Made by a program: the position numbers and the translations under genes. From IMG/VR virus record IMGVR_UViG_2974556156_000001, positions 21,139-85,138 of that record: a stretch of DNA of 64,000 nucleotides; one strand, written 5' to 3'. Within the stretch, counting starts at the first letter, position 1. Every line of letters starts with the position of its first letter. Source of the DNA: a virus. Its lineage: Duplodnaviria > Caudoviricetes. Under the pieces are notes generated by a model, which worked only from the letters and a program-made list of their open reading frames with translations, ran no database searches and had not been told where the DNA came from. Positions 19,098-58,939 of this stretch are shown here, one piece after another.

Positions 19098-20183
19098 TTA
19101 GCTCTCGTCCTTGAGAGCATCGAACCTCTTCCACATGTCCCCGTAGTTGCCCCTAGAGGCCGCCTTGGAGTAGGCCGTCGCCCGGCCCTCGAAGAAGTTC
19201 ATGTGCTCGACACCCGACAGCAGCGGCTGGAGCCACGGCAGGGGATTGTCGGTATGGTGGCCGAAGAGGTGGGGCAGATCCATCTGAGCCATACGCCAGT
19301 CGGCGATGAACTCGACATAGTTCTTGATGTCCTGAGCCTCCATGCCTTCCACACCCCCCAGCTCGAAGGCGGTGTCGATGAAGGCATGTTCCTGACGGAC
19401 CACCTCGCGACCGATCTCACGGATCTCATCCTTGACGTCCTGGGTCAGCTCGCCGGTCTCGCGCGCGTAGGCGTGGAACAGCTTGAGGATGCCCTCGCAG
19501 TGGATGCTCTCGTCGCGTACCGACCACGAGACGATCTGACCCATACCCTTCATCAGGTTGAAGCGCGGGAAGTTCATCAACATGGCGAACGAGGCGAAGA
19601 CCTGCAGCCCCTCGGCGAAGCCGCCGAACATCGCCATGGTCTTCAGCACGCCCTTGGGGCTGTCGACGTCGAAGGAGTGCCAGTACTCGACCTTGGCCTT
19701 CATGGCCTCGTAGTCGGCGAACGCCTCGTACTCGGCCTCCGGCATGCCTACGGTCTCCAGCAGGAGGCTGTAGGCGTCGATGTGGACGGTCTCCATGGCC
19801 CCGAACGCGGCCAGCATCATCTTCACCTCGGTGGGCTTGAAAATGCGGCTGTAGCGCTCGTGGTAGTTGTTCATCACCTCCTCGTCCGACTTGGTGAAGA
19901 GACGGAAGATCTGGACCAGCAGGTTCTTCTGCTCGGCCGTCAGCTTGGTCTCCCAGTCGCGAACGTCCTCGCCGAGCGGGACCTCCTCGCCCAACCAGTG
20001 GACCTGCTGCTGCTTCTTCCACAAGTCGTAGGCCCAAGGATAGCGGAACGGCTTGTAGCCGGCGCTCTCGGTTAGCAGACCAGGCTTGACCTGCTCGGCG
20101 ATAGCCATCAGCACATCGGCCTTGATGTTCTTGACGAGTGGGGGTTGGTCTAGGCCCAGCAGGATGGGCGGGTCAGCTCTCAT
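19098..20183 (-). CDS. nrdB: Ribonucleotide reductase class Ia beta subunit
   Basis: YKPFRYPWA, VHWLGEE, METVHIDAY, SVRDESIH, NFFE; ATG 20183 overlaps the nrdA stop. Confidence 0.95.
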   Translation of the reverse strand: MRADPPILLGLDQPPLVKNIKADVLMAIAEQVKPGLLTESAGYKPFRYPWAYDLWKKQQQVHWLGEEVPLGEDVRDWETKLTAEQKNLLVQIFRLFTKSDEEVMNNYHERYSRIFKPTEVKMMLAAFGAMETVHIDAYSLLLETVGMPEAEYEAFADYEAMKAKVEYWHSFDVDSPKGVLKTMAMFGGFAEGLQVFASFAMLMNFPRFNLMKGMGQIVSWSVRDESIHCEGILKLFHAYARETGELTQDVKDEIREIGREVVRQEHAFIDTAFELGGVEGMEAQDIKNYVEFIADWRMAQMDLPHLFGHHTDNPLPWLQPLLSGVEHMNFFEGRATAYSKAASRGNYGDMWKRFDALKDES

Positions 20184-21964
20184 TGACATGCGATGCACTC
20201 GTCGTAGTCGGTGGTGGAGGAGATGATGAGCTGGTCGTCGTTGGCGACCGGCGTGGTGGTCGAACCGGCGTGGGCCGCACGCTGGATCGACTTGGAGCGC
20301 AGGTAGTAGGCCGACTTACAGCCCTTCTCCCACATCTTCCAGTGCAGCATGTGGAGGTCCCACTTATCGACGTCGGCCGGCAGGAAGACGTTGACCGAGC
20401 TAGCCTGGCAGACGTCCTCGGTGCGGTCGGCCGCCAGTTCGACGATCCACCGCTGGTCCATCTCGAACGCGGTGCGGAACACCTTCTTCTGATCTTCGTT
20501 CAGACAGTCAAGATGTTGGACCGAGCCCTCATGTTCGAGGATCGAGTCCCACCAGCGGTCGACCATGGTTGGGTCGATCTCGTTGAGCAGCTTGTCGAGG
20601 TATCGGTTCCTGATGACCTCAGAGCCGGAGAGGGTCTTGTGGACGTAGAGATTGGCTGGGATGGGTTCGATGCCCGCCGACGTGCCGCCCGCGATGATCG
20701 AGATCGAGGCGGTCGGGGCCACGGCCAGCTTGTGTGCGAACCGCTCCATCACACCCTGATCAGCCGCATCCGGGCATGCGCCGCGCTCGACCGCCAACTT
20801 CTTGCTGGCCTCGTCGGCCTGCCGGCGTAGATGCTTGAACAACCGCATATTCCAGACCTTGGCCAGCGGTCCCTCGAACGCCACGCCCTCCGACTGGAGG
20901 AAGCTGTGGAAGCCCATGAGCCCCAGGCCCACAGAGCGTTCCCGCATAGCTGAGTAGCGAGCCTTGGCCATCGTGTCCGGTGCGCGGTCGATGAAGTCCT
21001 GAAGGACGTTGTCGAGGAAGCGCATGACGTCCTCGATAAAGGTCGGGTGGTCGCGCCACTGCCAATAGGTCTCGGCGTTCACCGACGACAGGCAGCAGAC
21101 CGCCGTGCGGTCGTTGCCCAGGTGGTCGATGCCGGCGTGTAGCATGATTTCGGTGCAGAGGTTCGACTGGCGCACGCGCAGGCCGACGTCACGCTGGAAG
21201 GCCGGCATGTGCTTGTTGGCGGTGTCGGTCCAGACGATGTAGGGCTCACCGGTCGCCAGGCGCAGGTCGAGGATCTTCTGCCAGATGGTGCGGGCGTGGA
21301 CCTGCTTGCGGACCTCGCCGGTCTTCGGCGAGCGGAGGTCATACATCGTGTCGTCGCGGACGGCGATCATGAAGGCGTCGTCGATGTTGACGCCGTGATG
21401 GAGATTGAGAGCCTTGCGATTGAAGTCGCCGGAGGGCTTGCGGATCTCCAGGAACTCCTCGATCTCCGGGTGGAAGATGTCGAGGTAGACGGCGGCCGAG
21501 CCGCGACGGAGAGAGCCCTGCGAGATGGCCAGGGTGAGACTGTCCATGACGCGAATGAAGGGGATGATGCCGGACGTCTGGCCGCTGTTGCCGACTGGCT
21601 CGCCGATGGAGCGGACGTCGCCCCAGTAGGTGCCGATGCCGCCACCGTTGCTGGCCAGCCAGGTGTTCTCGTTCCAGGTGTTCTGGATGCCCGCCAGGTT
21701 GTCCTCGACGCCGTTCAGGAAACAGCTGATCGGAAGGCCGCGCCCCGCGCCGCCATTCGAGAGGATCGGGGTCGCGGGCATGAACCACAGCTGGGACATG
21801 TAGTCATACAGGCGCTGGGCGTGGTCCAGGTTGTCGGAGAAGGCTGTCGCCACACGGGCGAACATATCCTGGTAGCTCTCACCAGGGAGGAGGTAGCGTT
21901 GCGAGAGGGTGGTCTTGCCAAACGACGTCAAGAGCGCATCGCGCTCTGGGGCCAGCTGCAGCAT
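20180..21964 (-). CDS. nrdA: Ribonucleotide reductase class Ia alpha subunit (no ATP cone evident)
   Basis: PATPILSN, ISCF, QSNLCTEI, VAPTASISII, YYLRS, C-terminal ECIACQ. Confidence 0.96.
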   Translation of the reverse strand: MLQLAPERDALLTSFGKTTLSQRYLLPGESYQDMFARVATAFSDNLDHAQRLYDYMSQLWFMPATPILSNGGAGRGLPISCFLNGVEDNLAGIQNTWNENTWLASNGGGIGTYWGDVRSIGEPVGNSGQTSGIIPFIRVMDSLTLAISQGSLRRGSAAVYLDIFHPEIEEFLEIRKPSGDFNRKALNLHHGVNIDDAFMIAVRDDTMYDLRSPKTGEVRKQVHARTIWQKILDLRLATGEPYIVWTDTANKHMPAFQRDVGLRVRQSNLCTEIMLHAGIDHLGNDRTAVCCLSSVNAETYWQWRDHPTFIEDVMRFLDNVLQDFIDRAPDTMAKARYSAMRERSVGLGLMGFHSFLQSEGVAFEGPLAKVWNMRLFKHLRRQADEASKKLAVERGACPDAADQGVMERFAHKLAVAPTASISIIAGGTSAGIEPIPANLYVHKTLSGSEVIRNRYLDKLLNEIDPTMVDRWWDSILEHEGSVQHLDCLNEDQKKVFRTAFEMDQRWIVELAADRTEDVCQASSVNVFLPADVDKWDLHMLHWKMWEKGCKSAYYLRSKSIQRAAHAGSTTTPVANDDQLIISSTTDYDECIACQ

Positions 21965-49330: not shown

Positions 49331-49650
49331 CTGATGATCTCCTTGAGCCTGGACCAGAGCGGATCATCCATGTGGATGTTGTTGGCCATGTAGTCCCAAG
49401 CTTCAGACTTAGTCATCGGCTCGATGGTTCGACTGTAAAGATCGAACCAGATCTCTCTCATGACTTCATCAACCTGCTCCTTGACCTTATCAAGGCGGCG
49501 ATTGATCACCATGATGTTGTCTTCGTCCAACTCGTTCCAGAGTAGATCGAAGAGAGGATCACCACACTTAGCAGCGGCCTTGTCGGTGGCGATGTGCTCG
49601 AACTCGCCGGCCGCGTAGGTCTGGCCGAGGATCGTCTGGTAGCGGTTCAT
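49315..49650 (-). CDS. Hypothetical protein
   Basis: 111 aa, ATGA coupling. Confidence 0.65.
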   Translation of the reverse strand: MNRYQTILGQTYAAGEFEHIATDKAAAKCGDPLFDLLWNELDEDNIMVINRRLDKVKEQVDEVMREIWFDLYSRTIEPMTKSEAWDYMANNIHMDDPLWSRLKEIIRCKPT

Positions 49651-50159
49651 GACGGCTGCCCCGGACAGAAGACGGCGTAGGCCGGCTTCTCGACGTACTC
49701 GGTCTTATGCACGGCCTGCTTGGTCGTGCCGACCTGGACACGGGTACAGACCGCGCCCTCGGCGTCTGGCTGGCCGATCCAATGATGGCGGCCAACATAG
49801 ATGCTGAAGTAGCAGAAGCGGTCGAACGTGAAGCTCTCGACCTTGCCGATGAACCAGTCGGTGGTGGCGTCCTGCATACCTTGGTTGCTGACGCCGCCCA
49901 GCTCCAACATAGCGGCCTCGACGGCGGCGAAGGTGTCGTTGGCGACGCCCAGCTCCTGATCGGGTCGGATCTCCAGGCGTAGGCTGGCGTAGCACATGCC
50001 CGACATGAAGTTGGCGCTGATGGCCCGGTCAGGCCAGTCGCGCGAGAGCGCCTCGGCGCGGTCGACGATGGCCGCGACCTTATCGATGGCAGCGATGGTC
50101 TTGTCGTACTCGTCGCGGGCGGCTTGGCGCGCGGCGGCGGGGGTCCAGATTTCGGACAT
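49647..50159 (-). CDS. Hypothetical protein
   Basis: Start MSEIW at 50159 after GGAG. Confidence 0.65.
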   Translation of the reverse strand: MSEIWTPAAARQAARDEYDKTIAAIDKVAAIVDRAEALSRDWPDRAISANFMSGMCYASLRLEIRPDQELGVANDTFAAVEAAMLELGGVSNQGMQDATTDWFIGKVESFTFDRFCYFSIYVGRHHWIGQPDAEGAVCTRVQVGTTKQAVHKTEYVEKPAYAVFCPGQPS

Positions 50160-50161
50160 GG

Positions 50162-50587
50162 TCAATACTCCAAGAGCGTGACGCTCTCCAGACAGGGGTG
50201 CCAAAATGGTGGGTGACGGGTGTTGACGTTCCAGCGGAACGTCGACTGCACGATCACCCATCGATCGATGAAGATCCGGTCACGGCTTAGATTGCGGGCA
50301 TCCAATCGAGCCAGCTCCTTGGCCAGGTGGTCGACGCGATCAGGTCGAACGATGACCTCGGGACGTAGATTGCTCAGGATCGACAGCTTGTCGGCCCAGC
50401 TACGGGTCGGGTCGCTAGGCGGGTGGATGTCCCGAAAGCAGGGCCGGACCTGATGTGGCACCTTGTCGAGCGGAACCAGGATCGAGTACTTGACCTGAGG
50501 TCGGTCGAGCGCAGAGATCGGGACGTAGATGTGAGGATGGTGATCCTCGGTCACCTTGAACTCGAAAACGACGGAAGTGTCTTTCAC
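50162..50587 (-). CDS. Hypothetical protein
   Basis: 141 aa, GTG start after GGAGGG. Confidence 0.6.
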   Translation of the reverse strand: MKDTSVVFEFKVTEDHHPHIYVPISALDRPQVKYSILVPLDKVPHQVRPCFRDIHPPSDPTRSWADKLSILSNLRPEVIVRPDRVDHLAKELARLDARNLSRDRIFIDRWVIVQSTFRWNVNTRHPPFWHPCLESVTLLEY

Positions 50588-50829
50588 GTCGCACCCTCCA
50601 CACCCTCGGCGATGAAGGACACGGCCTTGACCAAGTCTTCGACCGTGTAGACGTCGTCGGTCAGCTCGACGCCGAACTCCTTCTCGACGGCGAGAATGAC
50701 GTTGATCCGATCCATGCTATCGCCGGGGATCGGATCCTTGATGTTGAACCTGGTCGGCGGTTCCTTAACCTGCGTGCGGATCACCTTGGCGATACGCGGG
50801 ACGACGGTCATGTCGATCCACTGGCTCAT
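50584..50829 (-). CDS. Acyl carrier protein homologue
   Basis: 81 aa; GDSMDRINVILAVEKEFGVELTDD..TVEDLV aligns with the ACP signature ADSLD.VE.VMA.EEEF..EIPD...TV. Confidence 0.8.
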   Translation of the reverse strand: MSQWIDMTVVPRIAKVIRTQVKEPPTRFNIKDPIPGDSMDRINVILAVEKEFGVELTDDVYTVEDLVKAVSFIAEGVEGAT

Positions 50830-51164
50830 TCGAGACGCTCCTGGTGTTGGACGAAGCGCAGCTCCATAAGACACAGCTGCTCTCGCCACTCGGGTTTGAT
50901 GTCGGGCCGACGGAACAGCTCGCGACCGATGAACACGATCGCGTCCGCGAAGTAGGCCTTGGTGTAGAAGGGTGGAAAGTCGTAGAGCTTCACGTCACCA
51001 ACCCACCACTCGGTCGGCATGAAGTTGTTCCAGATCATGCGGAAGGTGTGGAAGAGATGCCTAGTCGACATCGACTTCGGGGTGTGGAACTTTCCCTCAC
51101 GATCTCGCCAGCGCCAGATCTGGGTGACCTCGCGCTGGCCGAAGTGCCTAACTACGGCGGGCAC
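50826..51164 (-). CDS. Hypothetical protein
   Basis: 112 aa, Trp/Phe-rich, coupled to the ACP gene. Confidence 0.6.
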   Translation of the reverse strand: MPAVVRHFGQREVTQIWRWRDREGKFHTPKSMSTRHLFHTFRMIWNNFMPTEWWVGDVKLYDFPPFYTKAYFADAIVFIGRELFRRPDIKPEWREQLCLMELRFVQHQERLE

Positions 51165-51321: not shown

Positions 51322-51536
51322 AGCTTGGCCTCCTTGCGCCGCTCGTGGCGGTTCTTAGGTTCGGACTTTTTAACCGGGTAATTTTCGAACCCGCCGCCCC
51401 GAAAGGTGGTCGTGCTCGACGTCGTGGGCTCGTAGCGCACGCCGTCGATGTAAATGGCCGTATCCCTGAAAGGGAACGTGCCCGTCGTGCCGCTAATGGA
51501 CTGACGAGCCTCATAGTCGATGGTCTGCGTGGTCAC
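51294..51536 (-). CDS. Hypothetical protein
   Basis: 80 aa, GTG overlap, GAGG RBS. Confidence 0.5.
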   Translation of the reverse strand: MTTQTIDYEARQSISGTTGTFPFRDTAIYIDGVRYEPTTSSTTTFRGGGFENYPVKKSEPKNRHERRKEAKLCRSRKRGT

Positions 51537-51853
51537 AGTTCACCTCGGAAATGGCGGGCCAGAACCTCCTTCAGCTCGTCAAGGCTGGCCGCCTCGTTGA
51601 TCTCGAACACGATCGGAGGATCGGGTGCTGGCTTAGGCTCGGGGCGCGGCTCATCCAGAAAGATGTGCTCGGCGCACCAGGACTTGCCCGGCAGGGCCTG
51701 GGCTGTGCAGCGGCTTCGGCTGCGCAGGTTGAAGAAGCACCGGTGCGTCGGTGCATGCTCGACGCACCAGCCTGGAATGACCTCAGGGTTGCAGCACGGC
51801 ACACCTAGACCAGTGATGGTCGGCTTGTTGAGGTCGCGGTGCTGGCAGGGCAT
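51533..51853 (-). CDS. Cys/His-rich protein (tandem zinc-finger-like)
   Basis: C...CC.....GWCVEH and RC...RC.....GKSWCAEH repeats. Confidence 0.6.
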   Translation of the reverse strand: MPCQHRDLNKPTITGLGVPCCNPEVIPGWCVEHAPTHRCFFNLRSRSRCTAQALPGKSWCAEHIFLDEPRPEPKPAPDPPIVFEINEAASLDELKEVLARHFRGEL

Positions 51854-52448: not shown

Positions 52449-52871
52449 TCAGGCGTCGGCGTCGGGCTCGCTGACCTTGCCGTCCAGCTCGTCGAGCTGA
52501 GCTTGCAGGGTGGCGATATCCATCGAGTCGATCGCCTCGTTCTGCTTGCGGGCCAGGGCCTGCAGCAGGACGTTGCGCTTGTCCCGAGCGGCGGCGGCCT
52601 GGGCGGCGGCGGCCTGGCGGGCCAGCTTGTCTTCGACGATGAACTTGACGATGTCGAAGCGCAGCTGATTGTCCGACTGGCTGGCGGTCACGCGATCGGG
52701 GTTGATCAGCGAGAAGTTGCCCGGCACCGTCAGCTTGCCGTTCAGGTCGGCGGCGATGGCGTCGAGTTGATCGAGCGTCAGCTCGAAGAGATCCTCGGTG
52801 TTGAGCTTGCCCGAGGTGGTGGTGAAGCGGAGCTTCTTGCGCGCCGCCCGTTCGAAGATGTTCATGGCCAT
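52449..52871 (-). CDS. Conserved-looking phage protein, partner of the 688-aa protein
   Basis: NIFERA.R.KLRF.T..G.L..EDL..L pattern. Confidence 0.7.
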   Translation of the reverse strand: MAMNIFERAARKKLRFTTTSGKLNTEDLFELTLDQLDAIAADLNGKLTVPGNFSLINPDRVTASQSDNQLRFDIVKFIVEDKLARQAAAAQAAAARDKRNVLLQALARKQNEAIDSMDIATLQAQLDELDGKVSEPDADA

Positions 52872-52910: not shown

Positions 52911-54977
52911 TTAGAAGAGGACCTTGAGGGTCCGATCGATGTTGCCCTTGACCCGGACAACCAGGGCAGGCTGATCCTTGCCGGTGGGCGTGAAGCCCAG
53001 GCCGACCAGCTGTTCGGTGACGCCGGCCGGATCGACCGCCATCTTCGCGCCCAGCAGCTCGAACACCTTGCGGTGCGGGTTCAGCTCGGGCTTGAGTTGC
53101 TCGTTGTAGAAGCCGCGCGTCGGCTCATCCATCACCCAGCCGTCCAGCAGGAAGAACCAGTGCTTCTGGCCGACCTGATGCTGGCAGTCCCAGGTGTTGG
53201 GGCTGGCGACGATGGCGTTGACCTTGACGAAATCAGGCGTGGTGGTGCTCTGGCTCGACTTGATCAGCGGCACGACCGTGATCGCGCCGTGCTTGTCGAC
53301 GACGATGTCGGCGATATCAGTTTGACCCCTGTTGCGCGGGTTGTTGTCCATCGCGAAGTGGTGGACCGAGCCCTGGATGTCGATGTCCACGGTGAAGCCC
53401 GTATCGACCGGCGAGATGCGGCTGTACTGGTGAACGAAGACGCGATAGTTGCCGGGCTTCATCTGGGTCTTGTCGGCATAGACGATGTTCTCGACCGGCG
53501 TGTGAGGGCCGCGATCCAGGTTGCCGCCCGCGTTGGCGTCCACGTCCAGCTGGCCACCCGAGGGCGACTTGCTCGACCGGTTCGCGTAGCTGATGTGGTA
53601 GCTGCGGCTCGTATTCTCCACGACGTGCAGGTCCAGGTCGTCGCCGTTGCTCCAGGCCAGGCGGATGCCGACGTCGCCGTCGACATTGCCGCCGGCCGCC
53701 TTGACGCGCTGCTTGACCGCGTCGGCGAAGTTGCCGACGTAGGACCAGCTGAAGCCGTTGTCCCACGGGAACAGGCCCGGCACGCCCGTCATCAGGGCGA
53801 CCTTCTGGGCGGCGTGACGGCGCTCGACGCCGATCTCGATCGAGGTCGCAGTGGGAAGCACGTCCGAGAGAAACTGGTCGATCGTGACCTCGGCGATCTG
53901 GTCCAGCTTCGCGAGCGGGGCCTTCTTGGTCGGGGTCAGGTCGTCGAACGGGTTGTCCTTGATGCGAGCGCGGCTCTCGCGGTCGACGAACAGCACATGC
54001 TTGGCCGAGATGTCGTCGATGGTCGCGAAGCGCCGGCTGAGCGCCGAGGTCAGGCCCAGCTCTTCGACCTTGGCCTTGGCGTCCTCGATCATGCGGGGCG
54101 TGACGAGGGCAGTCGGGCGGCGGTAGTTCTCGCCGCAGACCATGCGCTCGAAGCGACCGACCGCACCGTCCAGGTCGCCAGGATCGGCGGTCAGCTCGAC
54201 CAGCAGGGTGCCAATGCTGGAGCCACGGATGGCGGCCAGGGCGTCGCCGACCTTGAAGCTGTATTCCCAGGTCAGGGTGTTGAAGTCCTGGGTCGTGGAC
54301 TTGGTCAGGATCTCGTTCTGGACGCGCTTGAACTCGCGCAGCAGAGAGGCGAACTGATCGCCGCGCGCCAGGCTGTTGCTGGCGATCAGCTCCAGCACGG
54401 TGGAAACCGCGTCGGGGAGGATCTCGCGCACGGCGCGCGACAGCGTGTACTGCTTGGTGCGCGGGCCGTTCAGCAGCGTTGGGATGTCGTGGCGGCGCTT
54501 GACGTACTTGGCCGGCACCGAGACGTGGAAGTGGTCATAGGTGATCGCATTGCCGGCCTCGTCGCGCTCGACGTTCTGGCGCGTGCCCAGGTTCGAGCTG
54601 TCGTGCAGGAAGACGTTGTTGATCGGCTGGGCGCGGACGGCGGCGGCCAGGGCGTCGGCGACGTGCTGGAAATCAGGGACCTTCACGTCCCAGATGGTCT
54701 GGATCTTGCCGTCAATGATGGCGACGATGTTCGACTTGCGGATGAAGTTGCGGCAGCAGCTGCAGTCGTAGACGCCGCGCACGCGGTGGATCGGGTTCTC
54801 GCCTTCCTTGAAGGAGCCGAGGTAGGTGGTCCAGAGGTCGTCGCCGAAGCGCGCGGCCAGCTCGGGGTAGTTGAGCGTGGCGTCGGGATCGACGATGGTG
54901 CCCGTCGTGAACAACTGGTGGAGGGTCATGGCGGCGAACTGCTCGGCCACAGCCTGGCGGAAGGTATTGAAATTCAT
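52911..54977 (-). CDS. Large protein with Cys cluster and YfaP/DUF2135-like domain
   Basis: YDCSCCRNFI; WSNGDDLDLHV...GGQLDVDANAG...VENI...PGNYRVFVHQY. Confidence 0.7.
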   Translation of the reverse strand: MNFNTFRQAVAEQFAAMTLHQLFTTGTIVDPDATLNYPELAARFGDDLWTTYLGSFKEGENPIHRVRGVYDCSCCRNFIRKSNIVAIIDGKIQTIWDVKVPDFQHVADALAAAVRAQPINNVFLHDSSNLGTRQNVERDEAGNAITYDHFHVSVPAKYVKRRHDIPTLLNGPRTKQYTLSRAVREILPDAVSTVLELIASNSLARGDQFASLLREFKRVQNEILTKSTTQDFNTLTWEYSFKVGDALAAIRGSSIGTLLVELTADPGDLDGAVGRFERMVCGENYRRPTALVTPRMIEDAKAKVEELGLTSALSRRFATIDDISAKHVLFVDRESRARIKDNPFDDLTPTKKAPLAKLDQIAEVTIDQFLSDVLPTATSIEIGVERRHAAQKVALMTGVPGLFPWDNGFSWSYVGNFADAVKQRVKAAGGNVDGDVGIRLAWSNGDDLDLHVVENTSRSYHISYANRSSKSPSGGQLDVDANAGGNLDRGPHTPVENIVYADKTQMKPGNYRVFVHQYSRISPVDTGFTVDIDIQGSVHHFAMDNNPRNRGQTDIADIVVDKHGAITVVPLIKSSQSTTTPDFVKVNAIVASPNTWDCQHQVGQKHWFFLLDGWVMDEPTRGFYNEQLKPELNPHRKVFELLGAKMAVDPAGVTEQLVGLGFTPTGKDQPALVVRVKGNIDRTLKVLF

Positions 54978-55033: not shown

Positions 55034-56449
55034 TCAGTCGTCGTAGTTCTGAGTCTCTAACACCGTCCCATCGGACAGGCGCATAGGGGCGTTGCGATCG
55101 GTCAGCTCGATGGTGCCGGCCGTCAGGTCGACACGCACCCAGCGGTTTGGCGGGTACTTCTTGAGAGCGCCTTCGACGCGCACGATCTTGAGATCCTGCT
55201 CGCGGAAGACGGTCACAAGGTGAGCAACCGCGCCACCGACCTCGGTGATCAGTACAGCGCCGCGCTGGATCGCATCCTGGGCGGCGTAGACATAATCCGG
55301 CCCGGCGTTCTTGATGACGCCAACCTGGCAGCCATCTGGGAGCCGGCCTTTGGGCTCGATATGGGCGATCCGACCTTCCACCTTGCCCGAGCCCGACAGG
55401 ATCGGGATCTTGGCGTTGAAGTAGCGCTTCTGCACTTCCTCCATCGCTTCGTAGGCGGCGTTGTTGAGCGGCCCGTCGCCCGCGAAATGCCAGTCGGAGG
55501 GCTCGAAGCCGCCACCGATGATCCAGTCGCTATGATAGGGGTCGTCGCCCATCATCTTCAGGCCCTGTGGGCAGATTGGATCCCACTTCGGGGCCAGATG
55601 CCACCAGCCGGTGCGGTTCAGCGCCCAGTTCTCGAAGGGTCGCGTGGGGATTGAGTGGATGACCCCGTCGACCTCCATGTCGAAGCGCTCATCGCCGGCC
55701 GCGTTGTCGATTTCGCGACGCAGCTCATCGGTGGAGCGCTTCGGCGCTCGCTCGGCGGCAAGAAACTTTTGGAGCGTGCTGGCTGGGCGCGGCGGCGCGG
55801 CTTTGGTCGCCATGATCACGACGTTGTCGAGGTCAGGCTTGATGTAGCCGCGCTCGTAGAGCCTCGGCACATGTTCGGCGGCGAGGTAGTTGTCGATCGC
55901 TTCCTGCGGCCTCTCCAGGCCAGCGTGCTCGAAGAAGGCATGCGGAAAGCCTCGGATCTCTTTGAACAGGATGTTGCCCCGTGACATGAGGCAATTACGT
56001 GTGTGGGACTTGAAGTCCCCGTTCAGCACGTAATGCGTGTCCTTGACCGGGTCGTCGGCATAGAACAGCGAGTTGTGAATGTACTTTGGATTGCGACGCG
56101 GGCCGTTGGCTTCAGGGACCATGTCGTCAGGTCCCCAGCTGGTGACGATGGCGTAAGGTCGCATGAAGCGACCATCGCTGGCGACGTAGACGCCCGCGAA
56201 GTGCCAGGCCAGTTGGCGCTTGTACTCCTGATCATCGTCATCGGCGAGTTCCAGGGAATTTACCCCGGTAAGTTTCGCATCGCCCTTCAAGATCCTCAGG
56301 GCGATGTCGTAGGTCATGCCGTGGAGGTCCTCCATCAGCAGCTTCAGCGACCAATCCCACCGACCCTCACGCACACGGGTGCGGACCAGATCGGTGATGT
56401 ACTCACCATCAATGCTGAAGTGCAGGGTTTTGCTGGTTGACGTGGACAT
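55034..56449 (-). CDS. Protein with C-terminal PEP-utilising phosphohistidine (swivel) domain
   Basis: GKVEGRIAH...NAGPDY...AVLITEVGGAVAHLVTVFRE...VRVDLTAGTI matches the PEP-utiliser mobile-domain pattern IVT..GG..SHA.IVARE. Confidence 0.75.
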   Translation of the reverse strand: MSTSTSKTLHFSIDGEYITDLVRTRVREGRWDWSLKLLMEDLHGMTYDIALRILKGDAKLTGVNSLELADDDDQEYKRQLAWHFAGVYVASDGRFMRPYAIVTSWGPDDMVPEANGPRRNPKYIHNSLFYADDPVKDTHYVLNGDFKSHTRNCLMSRGNILFKEIRGFPHAFFEHAGLERPQEAIDNYLAAEHVPRLYERGYIKPDLDNVVIMATKAAPPRPASTLQKFLAAERAPKRSTDELRREIDNAAGDERFDMEVDGVIHSIPTRPFENWALNRTGWWHLAPKWDPICPQGLKMMGDDPYHSDWIIGGGFEPSDWHFAGDGPLNNAAYEAMEEVQKRYFNAKIPILSGSGKVEGRIAHIEPKGRLPDGCQVGVIKNAGPDYVYAAQDAIQRGAVLITEVGGAVAHLVTVFREQDLKIVRVEGALKKYPPNRWVRVDLTAGTIELTDRNAPMRLSDGTVLETQNYDD

Positions 56450-57848: not shown

Positions 57849-58289
57849 TCAGTCGAGCCTCGACCCGGCGTAGATCAGCGGCTCTTGGCGCGCGCCGCTG
57901 TTCCGCTCAGGCCAGTAGGATTGGAGGACCTTCGCGAAGGCGGTCGCGCCGGCCTCGATCGCATCGATCGACTGGCCACGGTACTCGCCAGGGTTCCAGA
58001 ACTGCCAGCCGCCCGCGTAGTGGGCGCTGCCGCGACCCGTCGCCTTCATGTGACGGATGAACGGGTGCGTCGCCGGCCGGAAGACGACCCAGGCGAAGCC
58101 GCACGCGCCACCGTCGGGCATGTCCTTGCATGCGGCGATGGCGGCTTCACGGGCCTCGTTGTAGATCGCATCGTAGATGCGCTGACGGGCCAGCGTCGGG
58201 CATGTGTCCCAATGGTTGGGATGGTAGGGTGTGCCGGGCCTGATCTCGACGGCGGCCGGCAGTTTGACGGGTGCGGCGTGCAGGCTCAT
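57849..58289 (-). CDS. Conserved-looking phage hypothetical protein
   Basis: CGFAWVV.RPA...F.R..K..G.G...Y.GGW...NP..Y.GQS.D..EA.A.AFA.VL. Confidence 0.7.
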   Translation of the reverse strand: MSLHAAPVKLPAAVEIRPGTPYHPNHWDTCPTLARQRIYDAIYNEAREAAIAACKDMPDGGACGFAWVVFRPATHPFIRHMKATGRGSAHYAGGWQFWNPGEYRGQSIDAIEAGATAFAKVLQSYWPERNSGARQEPLIYAGSRLD

Positions 58290-58939
58290 TGGAGCGTATC
58301 CGATCCTGAAATGGTGACCGCCTGAGCGTCTTTACCTGGGTAAAAACGCTCCATGTAGTCGGCCTCGCTGGTGAAAATCTGAGCGGCCGGTTGCAGCAGG
58401 ACGTCGCCGTCCCCGTCTCGCGTGACCATGACCAGCAGCGACGCAGTCTCGCGCGTCGGACTTTTGGTGTCGATCACCGACATGACGGCCAGCTCGGCGT
58501 CACAGATCATCTCGAACCGCTCGCGGGCGATGTCGGGCAGCGGGCCGGGTTCGGGCAGCGGCGGGTTGGCGACCTGCTTCATCTTCTCGATGAGGGTCTG
58601 GAGGTGGGCGAAGGTGAGAGGCGCAGAGCTGGCCATGTGCGCCAGACCTGTGCCGACGCCATCGCTAGGCCACACGACCATCTTGCCGGCGCGGAGCGCG
58701 TCGAAGACCTTGGTGAAGTCGGCTTCGAGAACCTTGACGTTCTTCTCGAACTCGTCGTCGGTCCAGTAGTGGCCGGGCATGTTGAGCGTGGCGATACCGA
58801 TGGCGTTGGGCTCACCGCGCGCCTCGGCCGCTTGGCCACCGAAGCCCTTGCGGATCTCATTGTCGCCGAAAACGTAGAGTACGTCCGGGTTGTTGATCAG
58901 GTCTTTGCGGTAGTAGCGATGCTGGTAGATCAGCGGCAT
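58286..58939 (-). CDS. Macrodomain-like protein with C-terminal extension
   Basis: LYVFGDN...GFGGQA..ARGEPNAIGIAT...VVWPSDGVGTGLA. Confidence 0.5.
   Translation of the reverse strand: MPLIYQHRYYRKDLINNPDVLYVFGDNEIRKGFGGQAAEARGEPNAIGIATLNMPGHYWTDDEFEKNVKVLEADFTKVFDALRAGKMVVWPSDGVGTGLAHMASSAPLTFAHLQTLIEKMKQVANPPLPEPGPLPDIARERFEMICDAELAVMSVIDTKSPTRETASLLVMVTRDGDGDVLLQPAAQIFTSEADYMERFYPGKDAQAVTISGSDTLQ

What the first reader, a model, noticed from the sequence alone, without database searches (positions are those of the whole stretch)
50584..50829. Phage-encoded acyl carrier protein with charge-altered recognition helix
Seen: the DSM serine motif and helix pattern are retained, but helix II reads DRINVILAVEKEF where bacterial ACP has DTVELVMALEEEF, and no fatty-acid or PPTase gene is nearby. 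Known: ACP binds AcpS, FAS enzymes, SpoT and MukB through this acidic helix. Inference: a decoy or mimic that titrates AcpS or selected ACP partners, or a donor for acylating a phage product.
Basis: partly seen in the sequence, partly recalled or inferred. Interest (0 to 1): 0.7.

Follow-up and report, generated by a model that had tools for sequence, protein, structure and literature searches.

The report
Divergent orphan acyl carrier protein, phage Seuss
This is a real 81-residue phage gene for an unusually divergent acyl-carrier-like protein, already annotated as such in Caulobacter phage Seuss, and it belongs to a common class of phage carrier proteins whose function nobody has yet worked out.

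Summary
Window 50584-50829 (-) is a real, translationally coupled gene for an 81-aa protein of the acyl carrier protein (ACP) superfamily. It keeps the D-S-M-D serine motif, and its predicted fold matches solved ACPs.

Helix II is de-acidified. The residues matching E. coli E41 and E48 are N and K, where 103/103 and 102/103 canonical AcpPs have E. I also found a 4-residue deletion where helix III lies, a P-I-P-G loop in place of D-L-G-A, and net charge -5 against about -13.

The 85-kb genome has no phosphopantetheinyl transferase (PPTase), adenylating enzyme, ketosynthase or acyltransferase.

The protein is 100% identical to the 'acyl carrier-like protein' of Caulobacter phage Seuss, so its identity is already public. 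Orphan ACPs are also common in phages: 338 of 50,697 records.

Five other phage ACPs keep the acidic helix, so this one is an outlier. The host's own specialised ACP, AcpR, also has N at that position and is known to carry 4'-phosphopantetheine. The altered helix therefore does not argue against modification.

Best reading, at moderate confidence: a carrier modified by the host AcpS and insulated from fatty-acid synthesis. A decoy or inhibitor role remains open. No mechanism is shown. Interest is modest.

The parts
50584..50829 (-). Gene for the 81-aa ACP-like protein (P0001), stop codon included
   Evidence: Translation. GC3 0.87. Homology to ACPs. 100% identical to UniProt A0A0K1LNA5, 'Acyl carrier-like protein', Caulobacter phage Seuss.
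50716..50718 (-). Codon AGC for Ser38, the predicted 4'-phosphopantetheine attachment serine in the D37-S38-M39-D40 motif
   Evidence: Read directly. This column is D-S-[LM]-D in all aligned ACPs. The Asp35/Asp38-Arg14 contact in AcpS-ACP complexes is described in PMC3447402.
50674..50718 (-). Helix II (residues 38-52, SMDRINVILAVEKEF) with R41, N43 and K50 at the positions of E. coli T39, E41 and E48
   Evidence: AF2 helix at residues 38-52. Column statistics against 103 AcpPs. Profile alignment.
50644..50673 (-). Connector between helix II and the last helix (residues 53-62, GVELTDDVYT), 4 residues shorter than in canonical ACPs; no helix III is predicted
   Evidence: MAFFT and profile-HMM alignments place a 4-residue gap here. 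Neither AF2 model has a helix here. A pairwise phmmer alignment to a mitochondrial ACP places only a 1-residue gap.
50838..50842 (-). Shine-Dalgarno AGGAG, 8 nt upstream of the ATG
   Evidence: Sequence.
50826..51164 (-). Upstream gene (112 aa, phrog_21021, unknown function); its stop overlaps the ACP start (ATGA)
   Evidence: Homologues occur in many phages without an adjacent ACP.
50162..50587 (-). Downstream orphan gene (141 aa); its GTG start overlaps the ACP stop (GTGA)
   Evidence: No homologue anywhere.

Best explanation
The gene encodes a stand-alone carrier protein of the ACP / PP-binding superfamily, made early in infection as part of a long polycistronic block of small accessory genes in Caulobacter phage Seuss.

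**Shown:**
- The gene is real and homologous to ACPs.
- It keeps the D-S-M-D serine motif and has a predicted ACP-like helical bundle.
- Helix II has lost two otherwise invariant glutamates.
- The helix III segment is shortened by four residues.
- Net charge is only -5.

**Inferred:**
- Ser38 is phosphopantetheinylated by the host's AcpS-type transferase, because the phage has none of its own.
- Because the contacts used by fatty-acid-synthesis enzymes are gone, the holo-protein is insulated from bulk host fatty-acid synthesis. It would serve, or compete for, one dedicated partner.
- This would parallel the host's own low-charge specialised ACP, AcpR, which works only with its own synthetase and serine palmitoyltransferase.
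- The partner is unknown. It would have to be a host enzyme or an unrecognised phage protein.
For: **Real gene.** GC3 0.87, an RBS, and start/stop overlaps with both neighbours. No minus-strand promoter-like or terminator-like site between 47.7 and 56.6 kb.

**ACP homology.**
- PHROG ACP family, E 2e-6.
- All 60 listed PDB phmmer hits (of 95) are ACPs.
- 40 bits to an AcpP profile, against at most 11.1 for 2000 shuffles.

**Fold.**
- AF2 with an alignment: pLDDT 71.8, helices at 4-20, 38-52 and 63-74.
- Foldseek matches to solved ACPs: TM 0.68-0.74, rmsd about 2 A.
- The independent ESM Atlas model matches ACP clusters at TM 0.80.

**Constraint.** The only close relative (P0002, 79% identity) keeps D-S-L-D, R41, N43, K50 and the deletion.

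**Serine motif.** The Asp residues flanking the serine, which orient it in AcpS, are kept (PMC3447402).

**Host.**
- The host genus has one AcpS-type PF01648 gene in two of three genomes checked, and two such genes in the third.
- It has two ACP types, AcpP and AcpR, the latter next to Spt.
- AcpR has N at the same helix II position, net charge -7, and the same score against the AcpP profile (40.3 bits) as the phage protein.
- AcpR is experimentally 4'-phosphopantetheinylated. It is acylated only by its own synthetase, AasR (PMC9386255).
Against: - No phage gene for a PPTase, adenylating enzyme, ketosynthase, malonyl transferase or PlsC-type acyltransferase.
- No recognisable function in any neighbour.
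- The adjacent genes are not conserved partners.
- Pfam PP-binding is just below its cut-off.
- All NCBIfam ACP models score far below their cut-offs.
- Losing helix III may compromise the acyl pocket.
- Conservation of the serine rests on only two sequences.
- Modification, acylation and partners are all untested.
Confidence: 0.45

Rival explanations
1. Decoy or inhibitor. The protein acts by binding, not by carrying. It would be an ACP look-alike, apo or holo, that occupies one host ACP-binding protein (for example a phospholipid or lipid A acyltransferase, AasR/Spt, SpoT or AcpS itself) and so blocks a host pathway during takeover.
For: - It sits as an orphan among small early genes, just upstream of rIIA/rIIB, with no enzyme partner in the genome.
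- The same orphan arrangement recurs in RSL1, Motura, Bajun, R6L and phiCbK.
- A recent paper predicts a phage ACP docking on host FabZ (PMC13291599).
- From my own knowledge, not a tool result: overproduced apo-ACP is toxic to E. coli because it inhibits glycerol-3-phosphate acyltransferase.
Against: - The residues lost (E41, E48, the acidic helix III) are the ones through which AcpP binds most partners, for example the E41-FabD salt bridge. It is therefore a poor general mimic.
- The residues kept are those needed to be a PPTase substrate.
- AcpS is catalytic, so it is hard to titrate with a substrate.
Confidence: 0.3
2. Surrogate housekeeping ACP (an auxiliary metabolic gene). It would supplement host AcpP to sustain fatty-acid, lipid A or lipoate synthesis during infection.
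For: - It is closer overall to Caulobacter AcpP (39.7 bits, 28% identity) than to AcpR (19-21 bits).
- Phage ACPs are usually annotated as auxiliary metabolic genes.
Against: - It scores 14-29 bits on AcpP equivalog models whose cut-offs are 66-106 bits.
- It lacks E41 and E48, which are invariant or nearly so in 103 AcpPs.
- It lacks helix III.
- Net charge is -5 against -15 for host AcpP.
- Other phage ACPs that could plausibly do this job keep all these features.
Confidence: 0.08
3. An ACP-fold protein with a role unrelated to 4'-phosphopantetheine (a structural adaptor), or a drifting gene of little current function.
For: - Very few relatives: one at 79% identity. Apart from one repeat-driven artefact (P0003), nothing else is below E 1e-4 among 1.84 billion representatives.
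- The Pfam score is below its cut-off.
Against: - Strong coding signal.
- Substitutions against the 79% relative are mostly conservative, with the serine motif intact.
- The ORF is intact and translationally coupled.
Confidence: 0.12

Closest known systems
Phage-encoded stand-alone ACP homologues (PHROG 5934 / 4154; e.g. Ralstonia phage RSL1 ORF083, Achromobacter phage Motura gp339, Brevundimonas phage Bajun, Erythrobacter phage R6L ORF32, Caulobacter phage phiCbK gp221)
   Same: - A small single-domain carrier protein with the D-S-L/M motif.
- It sits among hypothetical early genes with no lipid or PPTase gene beside it.
- The function is unknown in every case (PMC5463345).
- 338 of 50,697 phage records hold such a gene.
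   Different: - The five compared phage ACPs keep E at the E41 position and a full-length helix II-IV connector.
- Their net charge is -10 to -17.
- Four of them score 61-93 bits on an AcpP profile, and phiCbK gp221 scores 40.
- The Seuss protein has N and K, a 4-residue deletion, net charge -5 and 40 bits.
- tblastn with the Seuss protein finds none of them.
Housekeeping bacterial AcpP (TIGR00517; Caulobacter CC_1677-type)
   Same: - Same superfamily, length, serine motif and predicted bundle.
- It is the best overall sequence match within the host genus: 39.7 bits, 28% identity.
   Different: - It fails all AcpP equivalog cut-offs.
- E41 is replaced by N, E48 by K, and T39 by R.
- D-L-G-A is replaced by P-I-P-G.
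- Helix III is deleted.
- Net charge is far lower.
- There is no fab gene context.
AcpR, the specialised ACP of sphingolipid synthesis in Caulobacter and other Rhodobacteria (CC_1163; PMC9386255)
   Same: - It is equally divergent from AcpP: 40.3 bits for both.
- Net charge is low (-7).
- It has Asn at the helix II position where AcpP has Glu41.
- It shows that such an ACP can be phosphopantetheinylated and can be orthogonal to housekeeping enzymes.
   Different: - Direct similarity is weak: 19-21 bits over helix II only.
- AcpR keeps the full helix II-IV connector and lies next to Spt and a reductase.
- The phage gene has no such neighbours.

Membership tests
ACP / PP-binding superfamily (PF00550) | Significant match to the family profile | tested here: inconclusive
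   Pfam gives 20.1 bits against a curated cut-off of 20.8, and 19.5 bits in the six-frame search. However, phrog_5934 gives E 2e-6. Of 95 PDB phmmer hits, all 60 listed are ACPs. A custom AcpP profile gives 40.0 bits against at most 11.1 in 2000 shuffles.
ACP / PP-binding superfamily (PF00550) | Conserved serine in a D-S-[LM] motif at the N-terminus of helix II | tested here: met
   D37-S38-M39-D40. The D, S and D columns are invariant in 77- and 105-sequence alignments. The 79% relative has DSLD.
ACP / PP-binding superfamily (PF00550) | Three or four-helix bundle fold | tested here: met
   This rests on predicted structure only. AF2 gives pLDDT 71.8. Foldseek against PDB returns ACPs throughout the top of the list, TM 0.68-0.74. 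The ESM Atlas model gives TM 0.80 to an ACP cluster. Helix III is not predicted.
ACP / PP-binding superfamily (PF00550) | Covalent 4'-phosphopantetheine on the serine | not testable with these tools
   This needs mass spectrometry or labelling. There is no PPTase in the phage. Host-genus genomes carry one or two AcpS-type genes.
Housekeeping AcpP (TIGR00517, NF002148-NF002151) | Score above the equivalog/subfamily cut-off | tested here: not met
   14-29 bits against cut-offs of 66-106 bits.
Housekeeping AcpP (TIGR00517, NF002148-NF002151) | Acidic recognition helix (E41, E47, E48) and acidic helix III | tested here: not met
   N43 and K50 stand where 103/103 and 102/103 AcpPs have E. There is a 4-residue gap where 102/103 have helix III residues. 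Net charge is -5 against a mean of -13.3.
Housekeeping AcpP (TIGR00517, NF002148-NF002151) | Occurs with fatty-acid synthesis genes | tested here: not met
   No KS, MAT, AMP-binding or PlsC-type gene anywhere in the phage genome.
AcpR (sphingolipid-specific ACP) | Adjacent to serine palmitoyltransferase and acyl-AcpR synthetase; AcpR-type sequence | tested here: not met
   No such neighbours. BLASTP against Caulobacter AcpR gives only 19-21 bits. The shared Asn in helix II is a single position.
Phage orphan ACP homologues (phrog_5934) | Profile match, plus a stand-alone gene among early or accessory phage genes | tested here: met
   phrog_5934 gives E 2e-6. The context is like RSL1, Motura, Bajun, R6L and phiCbK.

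The most novel reading that the evidence does not exclude
The Seuss protein is an orthogonal ACP that plugs into, or blocks, the host's AcpR-dependent ceramide pathway (AasR / serine palmitoyltransferase). It shares with AcpR the Asn that replaces Glu41 and a low charge. Ceramide glycolipids of Caulobacter limit adsorption of another phage, phiCr30 (PMC6445935). A phage-made carrier or competitor could therefore remodel envelope sphingolipids during infection.
Probability: 0.05. Interest if true: 0.75.

Novelty: new member of a known kind. Interest (0 to 1): 0.33.

Why it matters
Hundreds of phage genomes carry an orphan ACP gene, and none has a demonstrated function. This copy has two practical advantages.

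- It infects Caulobacter crescentus, a genetically tractable model host with a small, known ACP system. Host-genus genomes show AcpP, AcpR and one or two AcpS-type transferases.
- Its sequence has already lost the contacts used by the fatty-acid machinery. Any partner it still binds should stand out.

If it proves to be a dedicated carrier or a selective inhibitor, that would give a first mechanism for the whole class. If it does nothing measurable, that is also worth knowing for a class routinely labelled 'auxiliary metabolic gene'.

Tried and rejected
**Conserved gene partners next to the ACP: rejected.**
- The upstream 112-aa family (phrog_21021) occurs in Leptospira, Rhizobium, Vibrio, Klebsiella and Xylophilus phages without an ACP. 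In phage Lumi it is followed by a membrane protein.
- The downstream 141-aa gene has no homologue in phages, PDB, the protein collection or the Atlas.

**Link to the nearby 688-aa phrog_1735 gene: rejected.** It is present in only 2 of 5 other ACP-bearing phages, and there it lies 15-34 kb from the ACP.

**Defence or anti-defence families.** No PADLOC hit for the ACP or nine neighbours.

**Close relatives in IMG/VR.** None were found with the ACP or with rIIA. megablast of the region against phages found nothing, probably because the phage's own record is withheld.

**P0003.** This was the best hit of the exhaustive search (E 4e-10). It is a repeat-driven artefact that does not cover the serine motif.

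**AcpR-derived origin: rejected.** The protein is closer to AcpP.

**Single-sequence AF2.** It gave a low-confidence model, pLDDT 58.

**Tool closure.** The 44-kb contig carrying the only close relative could not be read, so no synteny or dN/dS comparison was possible.

A PEP-utiliser swivel domain was claimed in the 471-aa neighbour. Pfam did not report it at E <= 0.1.

Full report
**What is in the sequence**

On the minus strand, an ATG at 50829 opens an 81-codon frame that ends at 50584-50586.
- Third-position GC is 0.87. The overlapping plus-strand ORFs have 0.69-0.71.
- AGGAG lies 8 nt upstream of the start.
- The start overlaps the stop of the upstream 112-aa gene (ATGA). The stop overlaps the GTG start of the downstream 141-aa gene (GTGA).
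- No minus-strand promoter-like or terminator-like site lies between 47.7 and 56.6 kb. The gene therefore sits inside a long polycistronic block that runs into rIIA/rIIB.
- The longer GTG-started 101-aa version would overlap the upstream gene by 64 nt. The one close relative begins at the position of residue 5, which does not support the longer form.

**Is it an ACP?**

Each sequence signal is weak on its own, but they all agree.
- Pfam PP-binding: 20.1 bits, against a cut-off of 20.8.
- phrog_5934 'acyl carrier protein': E 2e-6.
- NCBIfam ACP models: 14-29 bits, far below cut-offs of 66-106.
- phmmer against PDB: 95 hits at E <= 1; all 60 listed are ACPs, best 1.6e-5.
- A profile I built from 103 canonical AcpPs: 40.0 bits, against a maximum of 11.1 for 2000 shuffles of the protein.

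Structure prediction agrees.
- AF2 with a 77-sequence alignment gives pLDDT 71.8 and helices at 4-20, 38-52 and 63-74.
- Foldseek matches this model to solved ACPs at TM 0.68-0.74 and about 2 A rmsd.
- The independent ESM Atlas model matches ACP clusters at TM 0.80.

The caveat is that helix III is not predicted.

**How it departs from ordinary ACPs**

I compared it with 103 canonical AcpPs.
- D37-S38-M39-D40 is kept.
- The position of E. coli E41 is N, where 103/103 have E.
- The position of E48 is K, where 102/103 have E.
- The position of T39 is R.
- The D-L-G-A loop before the serine is P-I-P-G.
- The connector after helix II is four residues shorter, where 102/103 have the helix III residues.
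- Net charge is -5, against a mean of -13.3.

MAFFT, BLASTP and the profile HMM all place the 4-residue gap at helix III. One pairwise phmmer alignment to a mitochondrial ACP places only a 1-residue gap. The loss of helix III is therefore likely but not certain.

The residues retained are the two Asp that orient the serine in AcpS-ACP complexes (PMC3447402). A residue lost, E41, forms a salt bridge with FabD K189/R190 (bioRxiv 10.1101/2020.05.15.098798).

**Identity of the phage**

- The window is bases 21139-85138 of an 85,138-bp viral record with terminal repeats.
- The best BFVD structural match is a 100%-identical 81-aa protein: UniProt A0A0K1LNA5, 'Acyl carrier-like protein [Caulobacter phage Seuss]'.
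- The Seuss genome announcement gives exactly 85,138 bp, host C. crescentus CB15, and rIIA/rIIB, RNR and thymidylate synthase genes. It does not discuss the ACP (PMC4591317). My own scans match that gene content.

The existence of the gene and its ACP-like nature are therefore already public.

**Relatives**

- Only one close relative exists: P0002, 79% identity, from a 44-kb Logan contig.
- An exhaustive phmmer search of 1.84 billion representatives gave 11 hits at E <= 1e-3. Apart from one repeat artefact, all had E >= 1e-4.
- P0002 keeps DSLD, R41, N43, K50 and the deletion. Its differences are mostly conservative.

**Context**

- The whole phage genome has no PPTase, AMP-binding enzyme, ketosynthase, malonyl transferase or PlsC-type acyltransferase, and no second carrier protein.
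- The neighbours have no Pfam, PDB or PADLOC assignment.
- The upstream gene family occurs in many phages without an ACP.
- The downstream gene is a complete orphan.
- The nearby 688-aa phrog_1735 gene is not linked to ACPs in other phages.

**Phage ACPs in general**

- A phage ACP query finds matches in 338 of 50,697 phage records. These include Salmonella Vi01-like phages, Vibrio ICP1 and many jumbo phages.
- In RSL1, Motura, Bajun, R6L and phiCbK the gene is likewise an orphan among hypothetical genes.
- The literature treats the function as unknown (PMC5463345; PMC10152775). One paper offers a computational prediction of FabZ binding (PMC13291599).
- All five compared phage ACPs keep E at the E41 position, the full connector, and net charge -10 to -17.

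The Seuss protein is thus an outlier within a known kind.

**Host comparison**

- Caulobacter genomes carry AcpP and a second ACP. The second lies between a reductase and a class I/II aminotransferase, which is the AcpR-Spt arrangement.
- Two of the three genomes checked carry a single AcpS-type PF01648 gene. The third carries two.
- AcpR has helix II DSLALMNIIMELEDAF. It has Asn where AcpP has Glu41, net charge -7, and the same 40.3-bit score against the AcpP profile as the phage protein.
- AcpR is experimentally 4'-phosphopantetheinylated. It is acylated only by its own synthetase, AasR, and not by a general acyl-ACP synthetase. AcpP is not used by AasR (PMC9386255).

This shows that de-acidifying helix II is a known route to an orthogonal but fully functional carrier. 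It is no evidence against modification. However, the phage protein is not an AcpR. It is closer to AcpP (39.7 bits) than to AcpR (19-21 bits).

**Mechanism**

I favour a host-modified carrier that is insulated from fatty-acid synthesis and works with one dedicated partner (about 0.45). The remaining readings are:
- a binding-only decoy or inhibitor of one host ACP client (about 0.30);
- an ACP-fold protein with no cofactor role, or a drifting gene (about 0.12);
- a surrogate housekeeping ACP (about 0.08).

Only the gene, the homology, the retained motif, the altered surface and the absence of partner genes are shown. Modification, cargo and partner are inferred.

A speculative link to the AcpR-dependent ceramide pathway deserves a test but has low prior probability, about 0.05. 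Its lipids reduce adsorption of phage phiCr30 (PMC6445935).

**Verdict**

This is a divergent member of a known but functionally unsolved class, it is already annotated, and its interest is modest.

Noticed in passing
window 52911-54977 (-) and 52449-52871 (-): A 688-aa protein (phrog_1735, E 1e-230) is followed by a 140-aa protein (phrog_2018). Neither has a Pfam domain. The large one has homologues at 40-45% identity in 528 phage records (phiCbK gp145, RSL1, Vi01-like Salmonella phages, Klebsiella, Bacillus, Dickeya). In phiCbK it is again followed by a 140-aa gene, gp144. This looks like a widespread conserved pair of unknown function.
   Followed up: partly
window 55034-56449 (-): 471-aa protein, phrog_11532 (E 3e-200). 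Another first-stage note claims a PEP-utiliser phosphohistidine swivel domain at its C-terminus. Pfam reported no such family at E <= 0.1, only a weak unrelated hit.
   Followed up: partly
window 49647-50261 (-): The 204-aa ORF overlaps the upstream 141-aa gene by 100 nt. An internal ATG at 50159 (MSEIWTP...) starts 2 nt after that gene's stop, which gives a more likely 170-aa product.
   Followed up: no
window 51533-51853 (-): A 106-aa cysteine-rich protein with weak matches to the zf-C3Hc3H / WRC zinc-finger DNA-binding families (E 0.002, below cut-off). It may be a small early regulator.
   Followed up: no
window 50826-51164 (-): The 112-aa protein of phrog_21021 has homologues at 31-45% identity in very different phages: Leptospira LE3/LE4, Rhizobium, N4-like Vibrio phages, Klebsiella, Edwardsiella and Xylophilus Lumi. 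It is a mobile small early gene of unknown function.
   Followed up: partly
window 20180-21964 (-): The ribonucleotide reductase large subunit is 70-74% identical in protein to Caulobacterales chromosomal genes (Caulobacter, Asticcacaulis, Brevundimonas). This is consistent with the host-derived origin noted in the genome announcement.
   Followed up: partly
window 58286-58939 (-): A 217-aa protein with a strong DUF7831 match (E 2e-40). It was the only Pfam assignment among ten early genes scanned between 56.6 and 63.8 kb.
   Followed up: no
L105:2691-2948 (phiCbK gp221): The unrelated Caulobacter phage phiCbK also encodes a divergent orphan carrier protein: 24 bits on PF00550 and 40 bits on the AcpP profile. 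It keeps the acidic helix II and has net charge -16. Two unrelated phages of the same host therefore carry very different ACP-like genes.
   Followed up: partly
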